Part shown: piece by piece, positions 3,798 to 20,118 of the stretch
Layout of the letters: every line of letters begins with the position of its first letter
Position numbering within the stretch: position 1 is the first letter of the stretch
Origin: an uncultured virus (IMG/VR IMGVR_UViG_3300037517_002797)
Taxonomy: Duplodnaviria; Heunggongvirae; Uroviricota; Caudoviricetes
Length of the DNA stretch: 23,993 bases
Reading direction: 5' to 3' (one strand)
IMG/VR virus record: IMGVR_UViG_3300037517_002797
The notes under the pieces: model-generated
Seen by the model: the letters and a program-made list of their open reading frames with translations, nothing else
The model's database searches: none
Told to the model about the DNA's origin: nothing
Made by a program: the position numbers and the translations under genes

Positions 3798-3965
3798 CTA
3801 TGATTTCTGAGCTAAGACCGCAAAGATAAGGCCAAGAACCCCAAAGCCTGCGATCAACTCGAAGCTGCCGCCTAATACCGCGGTGGCCAGGGCGACGATC
3901 CCTGAAACCACCGCGAGTACGGCAGTCCATACGAGGTTTCGCAATTGCGAGAACCAAGTAGGCAT
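3798..3965 (-). CDS. Small two-TM membrane protein, 55 aa (MPTWFSQLRNLVWTAVLAVV...)
   Basis: Manual translation; two hydrophobic stretches; starts 1 nt after the HTH gene stop. Confidence 0.75.
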   Translation of the reverse strand: MPTWFSQLRNLVWTAVLAVVSGIVALATAVLGGSFELIAGFGVLGLIFAVLAQKS

Positions 3966-4688: not shown

Positions 4689-4943
4689 TCATTTCGCAAG
4701 ACCTGCCTTTTTGGCGATCCGCTTGACCTTGCGACGTTCGTTTGCTGTGAGTCCTCCCCACACTCCTTCTTCGTTATTGCGTAGCGCGTAGTCCAAGCAC
4801 TCCTGCTTTACCGCGCACTTGTCGCAAATCTTCTTCGCTCTGTTGACAACTGTCCGCATGCGATCTTCAAAGAACAAATCGCCATGTCCGATACACGCTG
4901 CCTGTGCTCGCCAAATTCCAATGTCAACTATCCGTACTGTCAT
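4689..4943 (-). CDS. whiB: WhiB family Fe-S transcription factor
   Basis: WRAQAAC...LFF...AKKICDKCAVKQECLDYAL...GVWGGLTANER: four Cys plus GVWGG; GGAGG SD. Confidence 0.95.
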   Translation of the reverse strand: MTVRIVDIGIWRAQAACIGHGDLFFEDRMRTVVNRAKKICDKCAVKQECLDYALRNNEEGVWGGLTANERRKVKRIAKKAGLAK

Positions 4944-4988
4944 TTCGCCTCCCATGTATATTACTGTCTTGAGTTTGATCTACTTATG

Positions 4989-5050
4989 AGCTGCCAGCCT
5001 GGGACGACCCGCATCGCGGTACAAGGTTATCGTCCCGGCTAGCAGCATTC
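4989..5050 (-). terminator. Intergenic hairpin, possible terminator
   Basis: gctgccagcctgggacga...tcgtcccggctagcagc imperfect inverted repeat. Confidence 0.5.
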
Positions 5051-5062
5051 GCATGGGTGCGA

Positions 5063-5578
5063 TCAACAAATGCTGAAGCCGCCGCTGTCTTTCAAGAAGT
5101 CAGCAAACGCTCTAACATTTTCTACATCAAACGGATAATTGGTGTCAAAAGGGTTGACTTCACCTTCGCCATTGCACCCATTGCACCAGCCGTAATCACG
5201 ACCAACAACTACCGCAACTGCTTCATCGAGCTTTCGCTCTGGCATACCCATGTCTTGACCAACCGCATCTGTCCTGACGCCTGTGCCTTCGCAGTACTTG
5301 CATTGTTCACGAGGTTGGCTTGCAATCAAATTGCGGTACATCGCTTCATATATTGCAGTGCGACCGCTTGCGAGCTCGTTGTACAGTATGACTGATAGAT
5401 CATCTGCGCCTTCAGCACCAAGTCCATCGCCTCCATTGCTGTGGCCATCAACACCCGCAACAAGATCTTCTGCAACTATAGTGCAGTATTCCCACAGCGG
5501 ACGCCAGTACCAAACATTGTTGCGAAAGTACTCGCCACTTTTAGATTTTGGCTCTTTGCCAAATACATCCATACCCAT
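5063..5578 (-). CDS. Hypothetical protein with DnaJ-type CxxCxGxG zinc motifs
   Basis: CKYCEGTG and CNGCNGEG; start MGMDVFG after AAAGGAC SD. Confidence 0.8.
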   Translation of the reverse strand: MGMDVFGKEPKSKSGEYFRNNVWYWRPLWEYCTIVAEDLVAGVDGHSNGGDGLGAEGADDLSVILYNELASGRTAIYEAMYRNLIASQPREQCKYCEGTGVRTDAVGQDMGMPERKLDEAVAVVVGRDYGWCNGCNGEGEVNPFDTNYPFDVENVRAFADFLKDSGGFSIC

Positions 5579-10978: not shown

Positions 10979-11213
10979 ACTGCGCCTCGATGTCCTGGCG
11001 CAGTACCCGCAACTTCATTGCGAAGATGAGGACATCGTCATCTTCTTTCAGCTGGTCGGTCGCTTTCTCAAGCTCGAGCGCAAACTCATCGCGGAAGATG
11101 AGTTCATACTCAAGACAGTAATTGGCCTCGTAGATCGCGTTGAACGTGTCATGGAGGTCAAGTTGGCCTTCGATGCGCTCGATGACATCGAGCTTGGTCT
11201 CTTTCGTGTTCAT
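10977..11213 (-). CDS. Hypothetical protein
   Basis: ORF track; start moved to the ATG after GAAAGGA. Confidence 0.75.
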   Translation of the reverse strand: MNTKETKLDVIERIEGQLDLHDTFNAIYEANYCLEYELIFRDEFALELEKATDQLKEDDDVLIFAMKLRVLRQDIEAQ

Positions 11214-11258
11214 GGGATTCCTTTCGCCGTGGTGTGATCTCATCTTACTTTCCAGAGT

Positions 11259-11378
11259 TTACCACCCTGTCCTTGCGTACCAGTAGTGGTAGTGGCGGGC
11301 GCTCTTGATCCCGCGTCGGATTCCGGCTTTCTTGGTCCAGAAGATTCCGATCTGCACTGCACCGATGAATCGTTTCAT
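11259..11378 (-). CDS. Basic peptide, 39 aa (MKRFIGAVQIGIFWTKKAGIRRGIKSARHYHYWYARTGW)
   Basis: Manual translation; motif plus SD; paralogs at 11679 and 11821. Confidence 0.75.
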   Translation of the reverse strand: MKRFIGAVQIGIFWTKKAGIRRGIKSARHYHYWYARTGW

Positions 11379-11428
11379 TTTGGGTCCTTTCGTCGTGGTG
11401 TACGAGATCATTATACATTCCTCAGAAC

Positions 11429-11653
11429 GCTGAGGACGCCACAGCGGAGGTAGCTAACCTCACCGCAAGTTCCCCGTCGGGCGTTGCGAACTTGAACCGT
11501 ATGTAAGAGGAGGGCGGATGTCGTGAGAGGAGGACGGATACCGTGGTCCCGGGAACCGCGTAGAGCCTTATCTTCTGAACAGAGCCTTATCATTCAGTGA
11601 CGTCTCGTTCGCAACCTTGCGGCTGCTATGATGTCCTCAACGTGCTGAGGCAT
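11429..11653 (-). ncRNA. Putative structured ncRNA, family A copy 1 (~225 nt)
   Basis: Own promoter, no SD leader; collinear homology and covarying helices with 14322-14544. Confidence 0.8.
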
Positions 11654-11678
11654 GTACTCATTTTACTTTCCGGAGTTT

Positions 11679-11771
11679 CTACCACTTATGGAAGTTAGTG
11701 GCGGTGCGGAATCCGTGACGGATTCCATACGCACGGGAGCATGCGATGAACATTCTCAGTCTCAGAATCAT
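11679..11771 (-). CDS. Basic peptide, 30 aa (MILRLRMFIACSRAYGIRHGFRTATNFHKW)
   Basis: Manual translation; motif plus SD; GIRxG motif. Confidence 0.68.
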   Translation of the reverse strand: MILRLRMFIACSRAYGIRHGFRTATNFHKW

Positions 11772-11820
11772 TACTGGTCCTTTCGTCGTGGTGATGAGTT
11801 AATTATACTTTCCGGAGTTT

Positions 11821-11940
11821 CTACCACCGGGTCCTTGGAGCCCAGTAGTAGAAGTGGCGGCCCGTTTTGACGCCGGCGCGGATGCCGTTGGTACGTGCCA
11901 CCCCAATCCCAATCTTGATTGCGCGGATGATTGCTTTCAT
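11821..11940 (-). CDS. Basic peptide, 39 aa (MKAIIRAIKIGIGVARTNGIRAGVKTGRHFYYWAPRTRW)
   Basis: Manual translation; motif plus SD; paralog of 11259. Confidence 0.75.
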   Translation of the reverse strand: MKAIIRAIKIGIGVARTNGIRAGVKTGRHFYYWAPRTRW

Positions 11941-12000
11941 TTCGTGTCCCTTCGTCGTGGTGATGAGTACATTTTACTTTCCCGAGATTACGTGCCGCCC

Positions 12001-12159
12001 TTATCGGGCGGCCACGCGGACCTCGAGATCCTGCCGGACTTGGGGAGCCTGCGCCACCCAGAACTTGTTGCAGTTTTCACGTGAACCTGAGAACCTGATC
12101 AACTTGAACTTGCGATCATAAACCTCGTGGGCTCGGGTTGATGGCTTGGTCGTTTTCAT
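12001..12159 (-). CDS. Hypothetical protein, 52 aa; paralog of 6257-6406
   Basis: MKTTKPSTRAHEVYDRKFKLIRFSGSRENCNKFWVAQAPQVRQDLEVRVAAR. Confidence 0.8.
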   Translation of the reverse strand: MKTTKPSTRAHEVYDRKFKLIRFSGSRENCNKFWVAQAPQVRQDLEVRVAAR

Positions 12160-12207
12160 CTTTCGTCCTTTCGTCGTAGGTATGAGATCATTATACTTTC
12201 CTGAGTT

Positions 12208-12324
12208 TTAGTTGGATTGCTCCCACAGGTGAAGATCGGCGTTCTCTGGCGCTGGACAGGGTACGTCGTAATCCATCCAATCTTGATACGTGAATCCGCA
12301 TTTACAGGTTTGATCTGAATCCAT
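12208..12324 (-). CDS. Small Cys/His protein (MDSDQTCKCG...)
   Basis: Start after GAAAGGAC. Confidence 0.68.
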   Translation of the reverse strand: MDSDQTCKCGFTYQDWMDYDVPCPAPENADLHLWEQSN

Positions 12325-12377
12325 ATTCAGTCCTTTCGTCGTTTGAACTTGTGAGATCATTATACTTTCCTGAGTTT

Positions 12378-12584
12378 TTACATCCCCATCTTCTCGTACC
12401 ACTCACTCAGGATCTTGACCTTTTCTTCCACCTCGTTCAAGATCATTCCGATCTCTTCGTTCGTGAATTTTCCTTCTTGAACCAGTTCACGAACTAACTC
12501 GCCGTAAACTTGATTCACGTCAAGATCTGATCCTTCCATGATCTCGCAGATCTCGCTCGCTTTATCGTCTATTCTTTCGTCCAT
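12378..12584 (-). CDS. Hypothetical protein; paralog of 8675-8899
   Basis: ORF track; alignment by eye. Confidence 0.85.
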   Translation of the reverse strand: MDERIDDKASEICEIMEGSDLDVNQVYGELVRELVQEGKFTNEEIGMILNEVEEKVKILSEWYEKMGM

Positions 12585-12633
12585 TATTTTCCCTTCGTCG
12601 TGGTTACGAGATCATTATACGATCCCGAGTTTT

Positions 12634-12699
12634 AGTACTGGGTGGATAACTCAGACGCCGCCCAGTGCGACGAGGTTAGAGCAGTGTTATCCAACTGCG
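12634..12699 (-). ncRNA. Putative small RNA cassette G (~65 nt)
   Basis: Own promoter, no usable ORF; two hairpins plus TGGATAAC/GTTATCCA complementarity. Confidence 0.5.
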
Positions 12700-12722
12700 A
12701 TGATCATTATAAGTTCCCGAGT

Positions 12723-12890
12723 TCAGTCAGCTAGTCGCATGGCCGCTTCCATTGCGTCTTCGTGGTCAGCGCCGCAGTCTACCGCCGCTTCATACTGGGC
12801 CTGCCGCCTAGGCGTTAGGGCCTCAAACTCAAGGCGGGCCTTTCGGACCTTCGGGTTACTTGCCTCTCCAAATGCTGTGATCGTCGTCAT
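12723..12890 (-). CDS. Leaderless hypothetical protein, 55 aa (MTTITAFGEASNPKVRKARLEFE...)
   Basis: Manual translation; TAAAGT-AGTGGC-ATG. Confidence 0.72.
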   Translation of the reverse strand: MTTITAFGEASNPKVRKARLEFEALTPRRQAQYEAAVDCGADHEDAMEAAMRLAD

Positions 12891-12914
12891 GCCACTACTT
12901 TACATTCCTGAGTT

Positions 12915-13094
12915 CAGCGACGGCGCGTGTCAGCCGGCGACCATTCCGGCCGATCACGCGTCTCGCTTGCGTGCTAGCGCGCACGACGAAGAACGCGCTA
13001 GCAACTGCCCGTCAACAGTTCTTGGGCCTATGGCAGGCCGGGCCGCTCGAAAGCGTGCCCGTCATGCCTTTGCGGCCCTATGGCAGGCCGGGAC
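12915..13094. other. Structured intergenic element with direct repeat
   Basis: Several long inverted repeats; cctatggcaggccggg occurs twice. Confidence 0.6.
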
Positions 13095-13226
13095 TTATTC
13101 CCAGTCGCCATCATCATCGTCATACGACGGCTCGGCGTAGTAGTCCGCATAGCGGTCTTCCTGCGCCTTGATGATGCTTGCCTCTTCGTTCCAGTGAGCA
13201 TAGTCACTGATGCTTGGGTTGGTCAT
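13095..13226 (-). CDS. Acidic protein, 43 aa (MTNPSISDYAHWNEEA...DDDDGDWE)
   Basis: Manual translation; motif plus GAAGGGAC SD. Confidence 0.72.
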   Translation of the reverse strand: MTNPSISDYAHWNEEASIIKAQEDRYADYYAEPSYDDDDGDWE

Positions 13227-13293
13227 TGCTTGGTCCCTTCGTTGTTCGTTGATGAGATCATTATAGGATCCTGAGATCCCGTCAGCCGAAGCC

Positions 13294-13527
13294 TTACGAC
13301 TGGGACCCGTAGGCCCAGCCGTAAGTTGCTTTGTAGAAGTCTTCCATCCAGGCCAGTGCGCCCTTCTTGGTGTTCTTCGGGCACCCGTATTCCTGTGCCA
13401 CTCTGATCAATGAGACCCCCCGTACATATTTCATGCCCGTTTTGATCTCGAGGCGTAGCCCGCCGATCAGTAGGCACATTCGGTAGTGCTCGATGCCTTC
13501 CTGCGTGTCAATTGCCATTATTGTCAT
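13294..13527 (-). CDS. Hypothetical protein
   Basis: ORF track; motif plus SD. Confidence 0.78.
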   Translation of the reverse strand: MTIMAIDTQEGIEHYRMCLLIGGLRLEIKTGMKYVRGVSLIRVAQEYGCPKNTKKGALAWMEDFYKATYGWAYGSQS

Positions 13528-13577
13528 TGCTTGTCCTTTCGTCGTAGGTTGATGAGATTATTTTACAATCCTGAGAA

Positions 13578-13823
13578 TTAGCAGACCCAGTTGACCGCAA
13601 TTACTGATGACTTGAAGTCATAGTCATGACTAATTTTAGCCGAGACCATGTTCCAAAAGTCTTCTGCTTGGACTTCAGGTCCATCAACAATTTCAATCTC
13701 GGGACCAAACCAACCCGCAAAAGCTGCAGCTGGCTCGAAGTCAAATCCGACAATTTTTCCGTACTTTACTCGAGCGACAAAGCTTCCAGGAATATCTACT
13801 CGTGTCATTTCATCTTGGTCCAT
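13578..13823 (-). CDS. Hypothetical protein
   Basis: ORF track; motif plus SD. Confidence 0.78.
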   Translation of the reverse strand: MDQDEMTRVDIPGSFVARVKYGKIVGFDFEPAAAFAGWFGPEIEIVDGPEVQAEDFWNMVSAKISHDYDFKSSVIAVNWVC

Positions 13824-13862
13824 TGTTGTCCTTTCGTCGTTGGTGAGTACATTATACGTTCC

Positions 13863-14030
13863 CTAGATCGAGATCCAGAGAACGTAGCCAGAGTCATTGG
13901 TCTTGTTGTGGTGTGCGCATGCTTCCACCATCTCACGAGCGCGCTCGAGCGTGAGGCCAGTTCGGTAGACTTCGCTACCACCCGCATCGCCGATCATGAC
14001 CGTGTATGTCTGTTCCTGTGTGGCTTTCAT
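13863..14030 (-). CDS. Hypothetical protein (MKATQEQTYTV...)
   Basis: Start after GAAGGGAC. Confidence 0.72.
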   Translation of the reverse strand: MKATQEQTYTVMIGDAGGSEVYRTGLTLERAREMVEACAHHNKTNDSGYVLWISI

Positions 14031-14076
14031 GTGATGTCCCTTCGTCGTTGTTGAGCTCATTGTACAGTCCTGAGTT

Positions 14077-14271
14077 TTACACTTCGGCTGGGCGAACCTC
14101 AAGAATCTGTGAGTCCAGTCCCCAAAAGCCACTACCGACTTCTGTGGTCATTACAAAGCCTGGCTGACAGCCGTGGCCGACAATTGCATGCTTTGCTGTT
14201 ATGACACCTATCTTAACTCGTGTGCTTCCAAATGGTGAGTACACGACCGTGTCCCCTACTTTATAGTCCAT
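14077..14271 (-). CDS. Small SH3/Tudor-like beta protein; paralog of 9613-9798
   Basis: ORF track; alignment by eye. Confidence 0.82.
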   Translation of the reverse strand: MDYKVGDTVVYSPFGSTRVKIGVITAKHAIVGHGCQPGFVMTTEVGSGFWGLDSQILEVRPAEV

Positions 14272-14321
14272 GCGTTTTGTCCCTTCGTCGTTGGTGTGAG
14301 ATCATTATATGTTCCTCAGTT

Positions 14322-14544
14322 CGCCGGGAAGCAACATAGCTGGAGGAGCTACCTCCCTACCCTTCGCCCGTCGGCGGCCTTGAACGATACAACGTGTGCG
14401 AGAAGTGGACGGATAACTAAGAGGAGGACGGATGGTCAATCCCGGGATTGATCAGAGCCTTATCGTTATGCAGAGCCTTAACTTGCAGGGACGGGTCGTT
14501 CGCAACCAGGTAGTTGCTATGTTGTTTCCCGGCGTACCGGGTAT
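14322..14544 (-). ncRNA. Putative structured ncRNA, family A copy 2 (~223 nt)
   Basis: Own promoter; 18-bp terminal helix; homologous to 11429-11653. Confidence 0.8.
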
Positions 14545-14570
14545 GCTATCATTCTACATTCCGTAGTTTG

Positions 14571-14642
14571 ATGAGCGCCCTGGAACTTTTACCCTGGGCC
14601 AGGGCCTTCCATAATCGGAAGGTGTGGGTCGTTCCAACCCGC
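14571..14642 (-). ncRNA. Putative small RNA cassette D (~72 nt, three hairpins)
   Basis: Own promoter, no SD; GGGTTG/CGACCC, CCTTCC/GGAAGG, GCCCTGG/CCAGGGC. Confidence 0.55.
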
Positions 14643-14646
14643 GAGA

Positions 14647-14769
14647 CTATTTTACTTTCCTGAGATTCAGGTAGATCATTGTGAGAACCGCAAGGCTCGC
14701 TCCAATTATCATGAAGCTTACGCTATCAATGAACTCTCCTGAGATAACAATGTCTTGAGCTGCTAACAC
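14647..14769 (-). CDS. Small membrane protein, 40 aa
   Basis: GTG after GAAAGGAC; hydrophobic C-terminal half. Confidence 0.65.
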   Translation of the reverse strand: MLAAQDIVISGEFIDSVSFMIIGASLAVLTMIYLNLRKVK

Positions 14770-14816
14770 TTTGTGTCCTTTCGTCGTGATGAGATCATTA
14801 TACATTCCTGAGTTTG

Positions 14817-14957
14817 CTACTCCCAGGTTATCCACCCTTCAGGTGTCACGTAGGTTGGAAGGCCCATCTCCTTCAGGTCTTCCCAAGTGTAGCTGCCGCC
14901 TGACACTTTGTTGATGTGATTCACGTAGCCAATGTTGGCGAGTGCTTCGTCTGTCAT
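14817..14957 (-). CDS. Hypothetical protein, 46 aa (MTDEALANIGYVNHINK...)
   Basis: Manual translation; motif plus SD. Confidence 0.72.
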   Translation of the reverse strand: MTDEALANIGYVNHINKVSGGSYTWEDLKEMGLPTYVTPEGWITWE

Positions 14958-14993
14958 TGCTGTCCTTTCATCGTGGTCGGTTGTACGAGACCA

Positions 14994-15185
14994 TTATAAG
15001 TTCCGGAGTTTGCGCTTCAACTCAGGAGAGACTTCATCTGTGATGAATGTCCCGATCTCGACAACAGTGTCGCTTTCGCCTGCGCGCTCGCGATCCGCAA
15101 GCCAGTCGGTGGCTGCTTGCTTGAGAGCAACCACGAGGCTGTAGTGCTCCGCATTGAACGTGACTTCAACTGTCTGTAGTTTCAT
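14994..15185 (-). CDS. Hypothetical protein
   Basis: ORF track; motif plus SD. Confidence 0.75.
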   Translation of the reverse strand: MKLQTVEVTFNAEHYSLVVALKQAATDWLADRERAGESDTVVEIGTFITDEVSPELKRKLRNL

Positions 15186-15227
15186 GTGTGTCCTTCCGTC
15201 GTGTGTTGAATCATTTTACGTTCCCGA

Positions 15228-15456
15228 GAACAGAGACTTAGCGAGATGGTTCAGACGCCCCTTTCGGGATTGAGCCTTAGGCAGTCCGTGTGGCCACACG
15301 CCACCTCGCATATCTCCGTTCCTCACAGGTGGGAGGACGAGTGTCGGCCTAGTGGTCGCCATGCCACTTTGGTTAGTAAAGCCCCCTGCAGGAGGAATAC
15401 CGCTCACTCATGACCCGTCCGCGCTGTGCGGCTAGGCTTGCCCTCGCCACCTGTGC
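15228..15456 (-). ncRNA. Putative two-domain structured ncRNA B (~230 nt)
   Basis: Own promoter, no SD leader; CACAGGTGG/CCACCTGTG, GCCTAG/CTAGGC, GAACGGAGA/TCTCTGTTC, GCGAGGTGG/CCATCTCGC; G-U pairs work on the minus strand. Confidence 0.72.
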
Positions 15457-15478
15457 GAGATCATTTTACATTCCCGAG

Positions 15479-15763
15479 TTAGTCCCAGATCCCTGGGTGA
15501 CCTTCCTCGCGGATCGGTTCAATGTCGCACTCGGCGAGCAGACTTTCGGCCGTTGCGCCTTCGCCGCCATACCACGTGCAGAACCCGTCATTGTCCCACT
15601 CGTCGAGCCTGACCGTCACGACTGGCCATCCGCCACCCGGGCCTTCAGCCTGGTCAATTCTTACCCATGCCGATGGGCAAAGCTTTCGCAGGGCCTCAAG
15701 GGAATGTGTGAGTGTTGGGTAGTCATCGCTAAATGCGACATCCACTTCGTATGTAAGTTTCAT
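15479..15763 (-). CDS. Hypothetical protein (GPGGGWPVV motif)
   Basis: ORF track; motif plus SD. Confidence 0.78.
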   Translation of the reverse strand: MKLTYEVDVAFSDDYPTLTHSLEALRKLCPSAWVRIDQAEGPGGGWPVVTVRLDEWDNDGFCTWYGGEGATAESLLAECDIEPIREEGHPGIWD

Positions 15764-15807
15764 TTTCTTCCTTCCGTCGTTGTGAGATCATTTTACAATC
15801 CCGAGTA

Positions 15808-15952
15808 AAATTTGGAAGGCCGCTACTCATACTTGCGTGCTTGGCAGGGACCAGCCGGTGTCCGGCCAGTATGCTCTTGTGCTTGATGTGTGCTTTGCTT
15901 AGCAGGGATTACCCTGTACCTTCCTGGTCGGTGTTACCCGACCAATCCTTGT
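15808..15952 (-). ncRNA. Putative structured ncRNA C (~145 nt)
   Basis: Own promoter; TGGTCGG/CCGACCA, GGAAGGT/GCCTTCC, CAGGG/CCCTG, CATACT/AGTATG, GGCCGG/CCGGCT. Confidence 0.65.
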
Positions 15953-15956
15953 GAGA

Positions 15957-16298
15957 CTATTTTACAGTCCCGAGTTCTTGGACTTGCCACGGACCTTCGC
16001 CCTTCGCAATGCTGTCGCGGACCATGAATCCGTATGTCTGGACACGGTTGTCCATTGGCTTGCCAAATTCCTTTTCAGCGCCGTTGCACTTATAGCCAGG
16101 CAGCCAACCATTGACGCACGTCCCGTGCAGTGTTGCTGTTACCCAATACGCATTCTCGAGGTCAGTCTCGTCCCCGCCCAATGTCGTGCAGCGTGCCTTG
16201 TACACGCCGGCTGGTACAAGCACTTCGTAGTACCAAGAGGCAGTCTCGCCTGCCGACTTGTGGTACTTCGTTTCTTCTTTGACAGTGAATGTAAGCAC
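15957..16298 (-). CDS. Hypothetical protein (in-frame leaderless ATG also at 16325)
   Basis: ORF track; GTG after GAAAGGAC. Confidence 0.78.
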   Translation of the reverse strand: MLTFTVKEETKYHKSAGETASWYYEVLVPAGVYKARCTTLGGDETDLENAYWVTATLHGTCVNGWLPGYKCNGAEKEFGKPMDNRVQTYGFMVRDSIAKGEGPWQVQELGTVK

Positions 16299-16348
16299 TT
16301 GATGTCCTTTCGTTGTTTCGTTCATGCCACCATCTTACTTTCCTGAGT

Positions 16349-16531
16349 TTAGTCTTGGTACAGACCTTCCGCAAGAAGTTCAGCATGCTCAACGAGCGCT
16401 GACCAGAAGTCTTCAACTCCCTCTGGATCCTTGCTGTCCTCAATTGGGATTATGAGCCTTGGCATCTCGGCGAGCCAGACGTGTACTGCCATGTCTATGC
16501 GCTCGACGCGGAATGGGGTTCCTGTGATCAC
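16349..16531 (-). CDS. Hypothetical protein
   Basis: ORF track; motif plus SD. Confidence 0.72.
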   Translation of the reverse strand: MITGTPFRVERIDMAVHVWLAEMPRLIIPIEDSKDPEGVEDFWSALVEHAELLAEGLYQD

Positions 16532-19857: not shown

Positions 19858-20118
19858 CTACATTCCTGAGTTCAGCGAGTCAACTGCCTTGCGAAGTGCA
19901 GTGTCAATATGAGCATCGTTGTACTCGTCACGATTACTGAGACGGAATCCAAGATCCCATGCACGATGGTATAAGTCCCAGCGATAGCGCATGTCAAGAT
20001 CATTTGCGCGCAGCTTGCCTTCGGCATGCAATGTGCGGTAGGTCTCGCGGAGGTCCGCTGTGTCAAATGGCCTAATCGTATTGACTAGGTCCTGGTAGTC
20101 TTCCTTGGTTACTTTCAT
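19858..20118 (-). CDS. Hypothetical protein (RYRWDL...YNDAHIDTALRK)
   Basis: ORF track; motif plus SD. Confidence 0.8.
   Translation of the reverse strand: MKVTKEDYQDLVNTIRPFDTADLRETYRTLHAEGKLRANDLDMRYRWDLYHRAWDLGFRLSNRDEYNDAHIDTALRKAVDSLNSGM

What the first reader, a model, noticed from the sequence alone, without database searches (positions are those of the whole stretch)
15228..15456. Two-domain RNA B shares the TAAGGCTC motif with family A
Seen: domain 1 is closed by CACAGGTGG/CCACCTGTG with inner GCCTAG/CTAGGC and CCTCC-TGCA-GGGGG. Domain 2 is closed by GAACGGAGA/TCTCTGTTC and GCGAGGTGG/CCATCTCGC, with CGTGTG/CACACG and CCC-GAAA-GGG. It contains TAAGGCTC, the 8-mer present twice in each A copy, despite no other overall similarity. 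Inference: different scaffolds present one recognition motif for a common target.
Basis: partly seen in the sequence, partly recalled or inferred. Interest (0 to 1): 0.72.

Follow-up and report, generated by a model that had tools for sequence, protein, structure and literature searches.

The report
Promoter-driven structured RNA in phage
This 229-base stretch of an uncultivated bacterial virus is most likely a gene for a folded, non-coding RNA with its own promoter, but the short motif it shares with a neighbouring RNA family is lost in its nearest natural variant, so a shared target is not supported.

Summary
The RNA strand is the minus strand, 15456->15228. It folds at -102 kcal/mol (z -3.67), against -86 (z -1.04) for the plus strand.

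The stretch fills the gap between two copies of an 18-bp early promoter that occurs about 47 times in the window. It has no ribosome-binding site, no terminator, no Rfam match and no tRNA.

The host virus is a ~140-kb uncultivated phage of actinobacteria.

Contigs from RNA libraries carry a natural variant. Its 11 listed substitutions and 3 insertions all fall in a 44-nt patch of domain 2. They include compensatory changes, and they put a stop codon in the 63-aa ORF. I read this as a non-coding RNA gene.

In that variant the shared 8-mer changes at 4 of 8 positions, while family A keeps both of its copies. Family A is a real, covarying phage RNA family. B is not a member.

The function of B is unknown. 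My best guess is a trans-acting RNA that binds a protein or acts as a decoy.

The parts
15461..15478 (-). Promoter of RNA B. Minus strand CTCGGGAATGTAAAATGA, with a TG-extended -10 box TAAAAT.
   Evidence: One of 25 matches at 3 or fewer mismatches (expected 0.02), and one of 47 at 4 or fewer substitutions on the minus strand (no shuffle control was run at that threshold). In most other units the same box precedes a leader with GAAAGGA and ATG, or a leaderless ATG.
15228..15456 (-). RNA B, about 229 nt and 61% G+C. The predicted 5' end is G15456, 7 nt after the -10 box. The 3' closing helix ends at the first base of the next promoter.
   Evidence: The start site is inferred from the 9 or more promoters whose leaderless ATG begins at the same distance. 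The 3' end is inferred; no terminator was found.
15324..15455 (-). Domain 1, 133 nt. A 9+6-bp closing helix, a branched interior, the CCUCC-UGCA-GGGGG hairpin, and an unpaired CUUUACUAACCAAA stretch.
   Evidence: Minimum free energy -60.2 kcal/mol, z -3.0, 0 of 200 shuffles as good. At most one unlisted substitution in the X5 and X1 variant contigs across 15295-15448.
15228..15321 (-). Domain 2, 94 nt. A 10-bp and a 9-bp helix lead to a junction with three small hairpins: CGUGUG/CACACG, GCC-UAA-GGC, and UCCC-GAAA-GGGG.
   Evidence: Minimum free energy -40.7 kcal/mol, z -3.9. The variant keeps this architecture.
15251..15294 (-). Variable patch (RNA positions 163-206). It holds all 11 listed substitutions and all 3 single-base insertions of the natural variant.
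   Evidence: tables 3 and 4. Mapped onto the fold: A172:U202 becomes G:C, the GAAA hairpin stem is rebuilt, and the other changes fall in loops and linkers.
15272..15279 (-). The 8-mer UAAGGCUC shared with family A. It consists of the triloop UAA, the 3' strand GGC of a 3-bp hairpin, and two linker bases.
   Evidence: Changed at 15272, 15273, 15278 and 15279 in the variant.
15258..15269 (-). Hairpin with a GAAA tetraloop. The loop is constant and the stem covaries.
   Evidence: UCCC-GAAA-GGGG in the window, CACC-GAAA-GGUG in the variant.
15211..15228 (-). Promoter of the next unit, the 63-aa gene at 15185->14994. It abuts the 3' end of B.
15216..15407 (-). The 63-aa ORF with a GTG start that overlaps B. 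Judged not to be a gene.
   Evidence: It has no GAAAGGA-type ribosome-binding site. Its codon score is -0.08, against 0.51 +/- 0.17 for 30 genes of the window. The variant has a stop codon in it. Its only database relative is a read-through gene call.
14310..14548 (-). Family A, copy 1 (for reference only; not part of B).
11426..11657 (-). Family A, copy 2 (for reference only; not part of B).

Best explanation
Window 15456->15228 (minus strand) is a free-standing gene for a ~229-nt non-coding RNA with stable folding. It lies in the early region of an uncultivated ~140-kb phage of actinobacteria.

It is transcribed from its own copy of the phage's repeated 18-bp promoter. It folds into two closed domains. 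It is not tied to one downstream gene.

I put the odds that it is an RNA gene and not a protein gene or a DNA site at about 0.8.

How it works is inferred, not shown. Most likely (about 0.3) it acts in trans during host takeover, as a scaffold or decoy that binds a protein. In that picture, domain 1 and the long helices form the conserved body. The 44-nt patch of small hairpins in domain 2, with its constant GAAA tetraloop, is the part free to change.

The 8-mer shared with family A lies inside that changeable patch. It is not a fixed recognition element of B.
For: Transcription unit:
- B fills the gap between two promoter copies exactly.
- It lacks the leader, ribosome-binding site and ATG that follow most of the other copies.

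Structure:
- Minus strand -102 kcal/mol, z -3.67; plus strand -86, z -1.04.
- Both domains are significant on the minus strand.
- 9 G-U pairs would be A-C mismatches on the other strand.

Selection on structure:
- The natural variant in contigs of runs X1 and X5 has 11 listed substitutions and 3 insertions, all within 15251-15294.
- None of them breaks a predicted helix.
- A172:U202 becomes G:C, and the GAAA hairpin stem is rebuilt by an insertion plus a G-to-U change.
- The variant folds at -106.2 kcal/mol with the same architecture.

Not a protein:
- The variant has a stop codon in the 63-aa ORF, and the ORF's codon score is 3.6 sd below the window's genes.
- The only protein-database relative, P0003, is a read-through of domain 2, the next promoter and a different downstream gene.
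- The plus-strand ORF has no relative.

Not tied to one downstream gene:
- In the P0003 lineage, domain 2 is followed by another gene, again behind a promoter-like stretch.

Presence in RNA libraries:
- Contigs covering B were found in runs of 3 studies.
- X2 covers 15301-15478, X5 covers 15237-15448, and X1 covers 15182-15400.
Against: - No transcript ends, strand or level have been measured. Contigs cannot show them, and DNA can be present in RNA libraries (tool note).
- X2's contig runs into the promoter, up to 15478. That does not fit a primary transcript starting at 15456.
- There is only one DNA-level variant, so covariation rests on two helices. Domain 1 has no variation at all, so its fold is prediction only.
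- No homologue turned up beyond this phage lineage. BLAST found none in the 13 related records it searched; a fourteenth record was not held. The covariance model found none in 10 records and 16 loci. A blastn search of 50,697 GenBank phage records found none.
- No terminator follows B, so the 3' end is unexplained.
- No partner protein, target or nearby RNA-handling gene was found.
Confidence: 0.6

Rival explanations
1. One reading: B and family A are different scaffolds that present the same motif UAAGGCUC to one common target, an RNA with GAGCCUUA or a protein.
For: - The 8-mer is real and rare: 5 in the window against 0.54 expected, and 18 of 5000 shuffles of B contain it.
- B also shares CGTCCTCC, the core of A's second repeat, and has a 12-of-13 match to A's UAAGGCUCUGUUC at its 3' end.
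- Shared 8-mers: 6 against 1.7 expected; 38 of 1000 shuffles reach 6.
- The P0003 lineage keeps the residues PKAQS that the motif encodes.
Against: - The X1/X5 variant changes 4 of the 8 motif bases while the B scaffold is unchanged, and the same run's family A contig keeps both copies.
- The structural context differs: in B the motif is a triloop plus a stem strand.
- The family A profile does not match B, and local alignment is at chance: 173 and 47 of 500 shuffles.
- CGUCCUCC in B is buried in the closing helix of domain 1.
- Only one sense-strand GAGCCTTA lies in the 48-kb record.
Confidence: 0.15
2. B is a cis-acting element: a long structured leader, processing signal or insulator for read-through transcripts that controls the downstream 63-aa gene (15185->14994).
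For: - No terminator separates B from the next unit, so transcripts from B's promoter probably continue into it.
- X2's contig extends upstream into the promoter, as read-through from the upstream gene would.
Against: - The downstream gene has its own complete promoter and leader, like some 40 other units.
- In the P0003 lineage, domain 2 precedes a different gene.
- B has a dedicated promoter of its own.
Confidence: 0.12
3. B is a primer or origin RNA for phage DNA replication, like the non-coding RNAs needed for replication of extrachromosomal mycobacteriophage prophages or ColE1 RNA II.
For: There is a precedent in phages of actinobacteria: a transcribed non-coding region is required for prophage replication (PMC7157519; abstract and passages read). 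B is promoter-driven and structured.
Against: - No parABS, rep gene or AT-rich unwinding region is nearby. B is 61% G+C.
- The phage carries several other promoter-driven non-coding units.
- There is no sequence similarity to anything in 50,697 phage records.
Confidence: 0.05
4. The signal is at the DNA level: a protein-binding palindrome, an origin, or a recombination site. The 14-bp perfect palindrome CGTGTGGCCACACG would be the core.
For: The variant changes the central GGCC to GCGC, which keeps the palindrome perfect. An RNA hairpin loop has no need for that.
Against: - Folding is strand-asymmetric and uses 9 G-U pairs.
- Compensatory changes sit in helices that are not DNA palindromes.
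- Once both central bases change, keeping the palindrome has a 1 in 3 chance.
Confidence: 0.05
5. The 63-aa ORF (15216-15407, minus strand) or a smaller ORF is translated, and B is an mRNA.
For: The ORF is open in the window and in 5 identical contigs. A 105-aa database protein overlaps its C-terminal half at 90% identity.
Against: - It has a GTG start with no GAAAGGA-type site.
- Its codon score is -0.08, against 0.51 +/- 0.17 for the window's genes.
- The natural variant has a stop codon in it.
- The 105-aa protein is a read-through across a promoter into another gene.
- It has no PHROG match. Pfam was not run on this ORF.
Confidence: 0.03

Closest known systems
Family A RNA of the same phage (window 14548->14310 and 11657->11426; 15 distinct sequences in IMG/VR contigs)
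   Same: Both are promoter-driven with paired 5' and 3' ends, both are about 230 nt, and both lie in the same early region. They share the words UAAGGCUC and CGUCCUCC.
   Different: - Family A has two GAUAAGGCUCU copies, two AUCCGUCCUC copies, a CCGACGGG element and an ACAUAGC/GCUAUGU helix, with 24 covarying pairs. B has none of this architecture.
- B is not matched by the family A profile.
- Family A occurs in many phage lineages. B occurs in only one.
phi29 pRNA (Rfam Phage_pRNA; properties recalled, not from a call)
   Same: Both are phage-encoded, transcribed early from their own promoter, and form a two-domain structured RNA of 170-230 nt that acts as RNA.
   Different: - B has no Rfam match, even at E <= 10.
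- This phage has a classical large terminase and is not phi29-like.
- Intermolecular loop pairing was not tested.
6S RNA / Ms1 (RNA polymerase-binding RNAs; properties recalled)
   Same: A stable, abundant ~200-300-nt RNA with paired ends that titrates a protein.
   Different: 6S is a single rod with a central bubble. B is two separate closed domains. B has no Rfam match.
Non-coding RNA of the RNA-based replication origins of cluster A mycobacteriophages (PMC7157519; abstract and passages read)
   Same: A non-coding, promoter-driven RNA region in a phage of actinobacteria that gene callers overlook or cover with spurious ORFs.
   Different: Those RNAs lie next to parABS in temperate phages and serve prophage replication. 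B sits among early genes, with no par or rep context.
GOLLD and ROOL, large phage-associated structured RNAs (PMC12286853; search listing and abstract only)
   Same: Structured RNAs of unknown function, often carried by phages.
   Different: They are much larger, are in Rfam, and form homo-oligomers. B has no Rfam match, and oligomerisation is untested.

Membership tests
Family A RNA (this phage group) | Two copies of GAUAAGGCUCU, 6-19 nt apart | tested here: not met
   B has one UAAGGCUC and one degenerate UAAGUCUC, 38 nt apart and in different structural contexts.
Family A RNA (this phage group) | Overall sequence profile: two AUCCGUCCUC copies, CCGACGGG, and the ACAUAGC/GCUAUGU helix | tested here: not met
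   nhmmer --max with a profile of 13 family A sequences finds both A copies (E 2e-51 and 4e-48) and nothing in B at E <= 10.
Any Rfam 15 family (including 6S, Phage_pRNA, tmRNA, RNase P, SRP, riboswitches, ribozymes) | A covariance-model match at the gathering score, or at least E <= 10 | tested here: not met
   0 matches at gathering score in the whole window. The 3 matches at E 2-9 in 11000-16500 all lie outside B.
tRNA / tmRNA | A cloverleaf or tmRNA detected by ARAGORN | tested here: not met
   0 genes in the window.
Protein-coding gene of this phage | Promoter, then a leader with GAAAGGA and ATG (or a leaderless ATG at +1) | tested here: not met
   After B's promoter comes TCTCGCACAGGTGG..., with no such site. 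The ORF starts with GTG 50 nt downstream.
Protein-coding gene of this phage | Reading frame kept open in relatives, and codon usage like the phage's genes | tested here: not met
   The X1/X5 variant has a stop codon in the frame. Codon score is -0.08, against 0.51 +/- 0.17.
Independent structured non-coding RNA gene (generic) | Own promoter, strand-specific stable fold, and compensatory changes in relatives | tested here: met
   The compensatory evidence is limited to two helices in one variant.
Independent structured non-coding RNA gene (generic) | A discrete transcript with defined 5' and 3' ends | tested here: inconclusive
   Short contigs covering B occur in RNA libraries of 3 studies, but contigs cannot show ends or strand.

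The most novel reading that the evidence does not exclude
B may be one member of an RNA toolkit that this group of lake and marine phages of actinobacteria fires off at the start of infection. At least 6 of about 47 early promoter units in the window encode structured RNAs and not proteins: two family A copies, B, and three smaller units.

On this reading, B's sharply localised hypervariable patch is an arms-race interface. The patch differs at about a quarter of its positions while the other ~150 nt covered by the variant contig show at most one unlisted change. B would then be an RNA decoy or inhibitor that binds a host factor, perhaps an immune sensor or nuclease, and changes its contact surface while keeping its scaffold.
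Probability: 0.15. Interest if true: 0.8.

Novelty: new variant of a known kind. Interest (0 to 1): 0.5.

Why it matters
Phage-encoded structured RNAs with their own promoters are few, and most have turned out to do something unusual: packaging motors, polymerase mimicry, replication priming, anti-CRISPR decoys. This is a clean, testable candidate. It has a predicted start site, a two-domain fold, and a natural variant that keeps the helices but rewrites one patch. Several other RNA units sit beside it in the same early region.

The shared 8-mer is not a conserved feature of B, so experiments built on a 'common target' should not be the first choice.

Finally, gene callers place spurious ORFs over such RNAs. 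The 105-aa database 'protein' P0003 is one example.

Tried and rejected
Searches for homologues of B that found nothing new:
- megablast and blastn against 50,697 GenBank phage records.
- BLAST in the 13 related records it searched; a fourteenth record was not held.
- Covariance model R1 in 10 records and in 16 loci totalling 139 kb. Its positive control scored 289 bits.
- Two exact-word scans of IMG/VR, which returned only the same 5 identical contigs.
- Neighbouring proteins used as bait, which returned the same 5 contigs plus 4 weak, unrelated loci.
- P0003 used as bait in IMG/VR: 3 weak loci with no B.

The single metagenome scan was wasted.

The family A pattern in bacterial and archaeal genomes gave 35 loci. 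All matched little more than the pattern itself, and none was from an actinobacterium. So no host-encoded counterpart was found.

AAGGCTC as a general mark of the RNA units was rejected, because it also occurs inside genes.

An RNA-RNA duplex test of B against the other RNA units timed out and was dropped.

The coverage gaps in the RNA-library contigs and the small word shares of runs X2-X8 are not used as evidence of expression level or habitat.

Ideas considered by eye only and not pursued:
- a tRNA-Ile anticodon-arm mimic;
- an 11-nt GAAA-tetraloop receptor (CCUAAG is not kept in the variant);
- a cloverleaf reading of domain 2;
- a decayed promoter at the domain junction (about 9-10 of 18 positions).

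Literature:
- A search for the motif letters returned only primers and unrelated sequences (15 of 590 papers listed).
- No paper on such RNAs in phages of actinobacteria was found, apart from PMC7157519.

Earlier findings of this scan: nothing on record.

Full report
**Where the window lies**

The window is the minus strand of a 48.3-kb IMG/VR virus record, judged 35% complete, which implies a genome of roughly 140 kb. All genes run on the window's minus strand.

The large terminase is 89% identical to that of the metagenome-assembled Actinomycetia phage DSL-LC01. More distant relatives are Microbacterium and Gordonia phages. The record also encodes a WhiB regulator, a class II ribonucleotide reductase, a CHAP lysin and a MoxR/VWA pair. 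The host is therefore very likely an actinobacterium. The runs that hold parts of the stretch are labelled freshwater, marine and sediment; I use these labels only as context.

**The observation**

One of them, GCCUAG/CUAGGC, is an alternative to the pairing in the minimum-free-energy fold. TAAGGCTC occurs 5 times, all on the minus strand: four in the two family A copies and one in B. The expected number is 0.54, and 0 of 100 shuffles reach 5.

The RNA strand is the minus strand.
- Whole RNA: -102 kcal/mol, z -3.67, 1 of 200 shuffles as good. The plus strand gives -86 kcal/mol, z -1.04, 27 of 200.
- Domain 1: z -3.0 on the minus strand, -0.94 on the plus strand.
- Domain 2: z -3.9 on the minus strand, -2.77 on the plus strand.
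- 9 of 73 predicted pairs are G-U, which become A-C mismatches on the other strand.

**The transcription unit**

An 18-bp box, CTCRGGAAWGTAWAATGA on the minus strand, recurs throughout the window. There are 25 matches at 3 or fewer mismatches (expected 0.02). There are 47 on the minus strand at 4 or fewer substitutions (no shuffle control was run at that threshold).

Most copies are followed by a short leader, GAAAGGA and an ATG. At 9 or more copies an ATG begins exactly 7 nt after the -10 box, which marks the likely start site of leaderless mRNAs.

B fills the space between the box at 15478-15461 and the next box at 15228-15211. B has no ribosome-binding site, no start codon at +1, and no terminator after it.

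Five other units in the window also lack a gene: the two family A copies, and units of about 151, 80 and 74 nt.

**Not a known RNA**

- Rfam 15 gives nothing at gathering scores in the whole window.
- At E <= 10 in 11000-16500 it gives nothing inside B.
- ARAGORN finds no tRNA or tmRNA.

**Relatives of B**

Five other IMG/VR contigs carry B at 100% identity. No diverged copy was found by any of these searches:
- BLAST in the 13 related records it searched; a fourteenth record was not held;
- a covariance model of B in 10 records and 16 loci, with a positive control of 289 bits;
- blastn of 50,697 GenBank phage records.

These negative results cover phages that share the same promoter type and carry family A (records G008 and G009). 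B is therefore confined to one lineage as far as these collections show.

**A natural variant, and what it shows**

Laying contigs of four metatranscriptome runs on 14300-16000 gave short contigs over B in three studies:
- X2 covers 15301-15478 and is identical to the window.
- X5 covers 15237-15448.
- X1 covers 15182-15400.

X1 and X5 carry the same variant. It has 11 listed substitutions and 3 single-base insertions, all between 15251 and 15294. At most one further, unlisted substitution lies elsewhere in each contig. So 154 nt of B (15295-15448) are essentially unchanged, while a 44-nt patch differs at about a quarter of its positions.

Mapped onto the fold:
- A172:U202 becomes G:C.
- The hairpin UCCC-GAAA-GGGG becomes CACC-GAAA-GGUG, through an inserted A that pairs with a G-to-U change.
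- The triloop hairpin GCC-UAA-GGC becomes GCC-AGA-GGC.
- The remaining changes fall in loops and linkers.
- No predicted helix is broken. The variant folds at -106.2 kcal/mol with the same architecture.

About 45% of the patch is base-paired, so eleven random substitutions would be expected to break several pairs. This is my estimate and was not simulated.

This is evidence for selection on RNA structure, though it comes from two helices in one variant. Domain 1 shows no variation, so its fold rests on thermodynamics alone.

Contigs cannot show strand, ends or level, and DNA can be present in RNA libraries. The contigs therefore show presence in RNA libraries, not transcription.

**The overlapping ORF**

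It fails on four counts:
- It has no ribosome-binding site of the phage's type.
- Its codon score is -0.08, against 0.51 +/- 0.17 for 30 genes of the window.
- The variant has a stop codon in the frame.
- Its only relative among 5.8 billion protein clusters is P0003.

P0003 is a 105-aa gene call. It reads through the 3' half of domain 2, across the next promoter, and into a different 63-aa gene. That promoter's -10 box there appears to read TATAAT instead of TAAAAT, which removes the stop.

P0003 shows that a third lineage carries at least domain 2 in front of another gene. Its three amino-acid differences map to positions that are unpaired in my model. It keeps the residues encoded by the 8-mer.

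The plus-strand 55-aa ORF has no relative.

**Family A and the shared motif**

Family A is real.
- A scan of IMG/VR for two spaced motif copies gave 38 loci with 25 distinct sequences. I judge 15 of them family A and 10 coding or low-complexity chance hits. A profile search agrees.
- The members come from phages with different promoter types.
- A consensus fold of 9 members has 46 pairs, 24 of them with compensatory changes.
- Hallmarks: two GAUAAGGCUCU copies, two AUCCGUCCUC copies (the first predicted to pair with a conserved GACGG), and a closing ACAUAGC/GCUAUGU helix.
- The family is absent from Rfam and from GenBank phages. It was not found convincingly in 35 pattern-selected loci of bacterial and archaeal genomes.

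B is not a member.
- The family A profile finds both A copies and nothing in B.
- Local alignment of B to A is at chance: 173 and 47 of 500 shuffles.

The word sharing is still somewhat more than chance.
- The exact 8-mer appears in 18 of 5000 shuffles of B.
- B and A share 6 eight-mers against 1.7 expected, and 38 of 1000 shuffles reach 6.
- The shared words include CGTCCTCC, the core of A's second repeat, and B's 3' end matches A's UAAGGCUCUGUUC at 12 of 13 positions.

Against a functional reading:
- In B the motif is a triloop plus a stem strand, and CGUCCUCC is buried in a helix.
- The X1/X5 variant changes 4 of the 8 motif bases, at 15272, 15273, 15278 and 15279.
- The same run's family A contig keeps both motif copies; its listed changes are at 14468, 14469 and 14489, between and beside them.

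It is not excluded, because one of the two other lineages seems to keep the motif.

**How it most likely works**

Shown:
- a dedicated promoter copy;
- a strand-specific stable two-domain fold;
- structure-preserving change in a natural variant;
- no coding capacity;
- no fixed downstream partner gene.

Inferred:
- the start at G15456;
- a 3' end near 15228, protected by the closing helix or made by processing;
- action in trans.

My best guess (about 0.3) is an early, abundant RNA that binds or sequesters a protein during host takeover, with the conserved domain 1 and long helices as the body and the small-hairpin patch of domain 2 as the changeable surface. The constant GAAA tetraloop suggests a tertiary contact (established knowledge of GNRA loops; untested here).

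**Verdict**

This is a real, previously undescribed structured RNA gene of an uncultivated phage. It is one of several such units in the same early region. The two-domain description is right. The 'one motif, one target' reading is not supported by the only natural variant available. The function remains open.

Noticed in passing
window, whole length, minus strand (for example 15478-15461, 15228-15211, 14812-14795): About 47 copies of an 18-bp promoter-like box, CTCRGGAAWGTAWAATGA, each heading a small unit. The upstream half CTCRGGAA sits where no standard -35 box would be. A WhiB-family gene lies elsewhere in the record (G000 4810-5169), so a phage-directed promoter class is possible.
   Followed up: partly
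window 14548-14310 and 11657-11426, minus strand; loci L179, L180, L185, L186, L187, L189, L194, L195, L198, L201, L206: Family A is a conserved ~230-nt phage RNA: 15 distinct sequences in IMG/VR, and 24 of 46 predicted pairs with compensatory changes. It is absent from Rfam 15 and from 50,697 GenBank phage records. It deserves its own report.
   Followed up: partly
window 14646-14567, minus strand; L206 about 3836-3915: An 80-nt promoter-driven unit with three small hairpins lies directly upstream of family A copy 1. It has a homologue in the same position in a more distant phage (record G009). Its first hairpin changes from GGGUUGGAACGACCC to UGGUUGGAACGACCA, which keeps the closing pair.
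   Followed up: partly
window 15956-15806 and 12703-12630, minus strand: Two further promoter units, of 151 nt and 74 nt, have no ribosome-binding site or gene. They fold at -52.7 and -17.6 kcal/mol. They were not tested for conservation.
   Followed up: no
window, for example promoters at 19870, 18188, 16773, 12912, 10520, 10316, 10037, 9590, 7689: In at least 9 units an ATG begins exactly 7 nt after the -10 box, which implies leaderless mRNAs. That leaderless mRNAs are common in actinobacteria is recalled, not tested.
   Followed up: no
window 14653-14800: A contig of run X1 joins 14652 to 14801, skipping 148 bases. The related strain therefore lacks one promoter-flanked cassette. This fits cassette shuffling between the repeated promoters.
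   Followed up: no
family A second repeat, for example window 14412-14425 region, minus strand: The repeat AUCCGUCCUCCUCU resembles the 3' end of 16S rRNA (AUCACCUCCUU, recalled from memory). Family A might therefore carry two anti-Shine-Dalgarno look-alikes. Untested.
   Followed up: no
protein P0003 / P0013 (database entries): A 105-aa 'hypothetical protein' in public databases is a spurious call. It reads through the 3' half of an RNA B homologue and a promoter into a real 63-aa gene.
   Followed up: yes
L195 1634-1753: A second, partial family A-like match (E 8e-11) lies about 2.3 kb upstream of the full copy in another phage contig.
   Followed up: no
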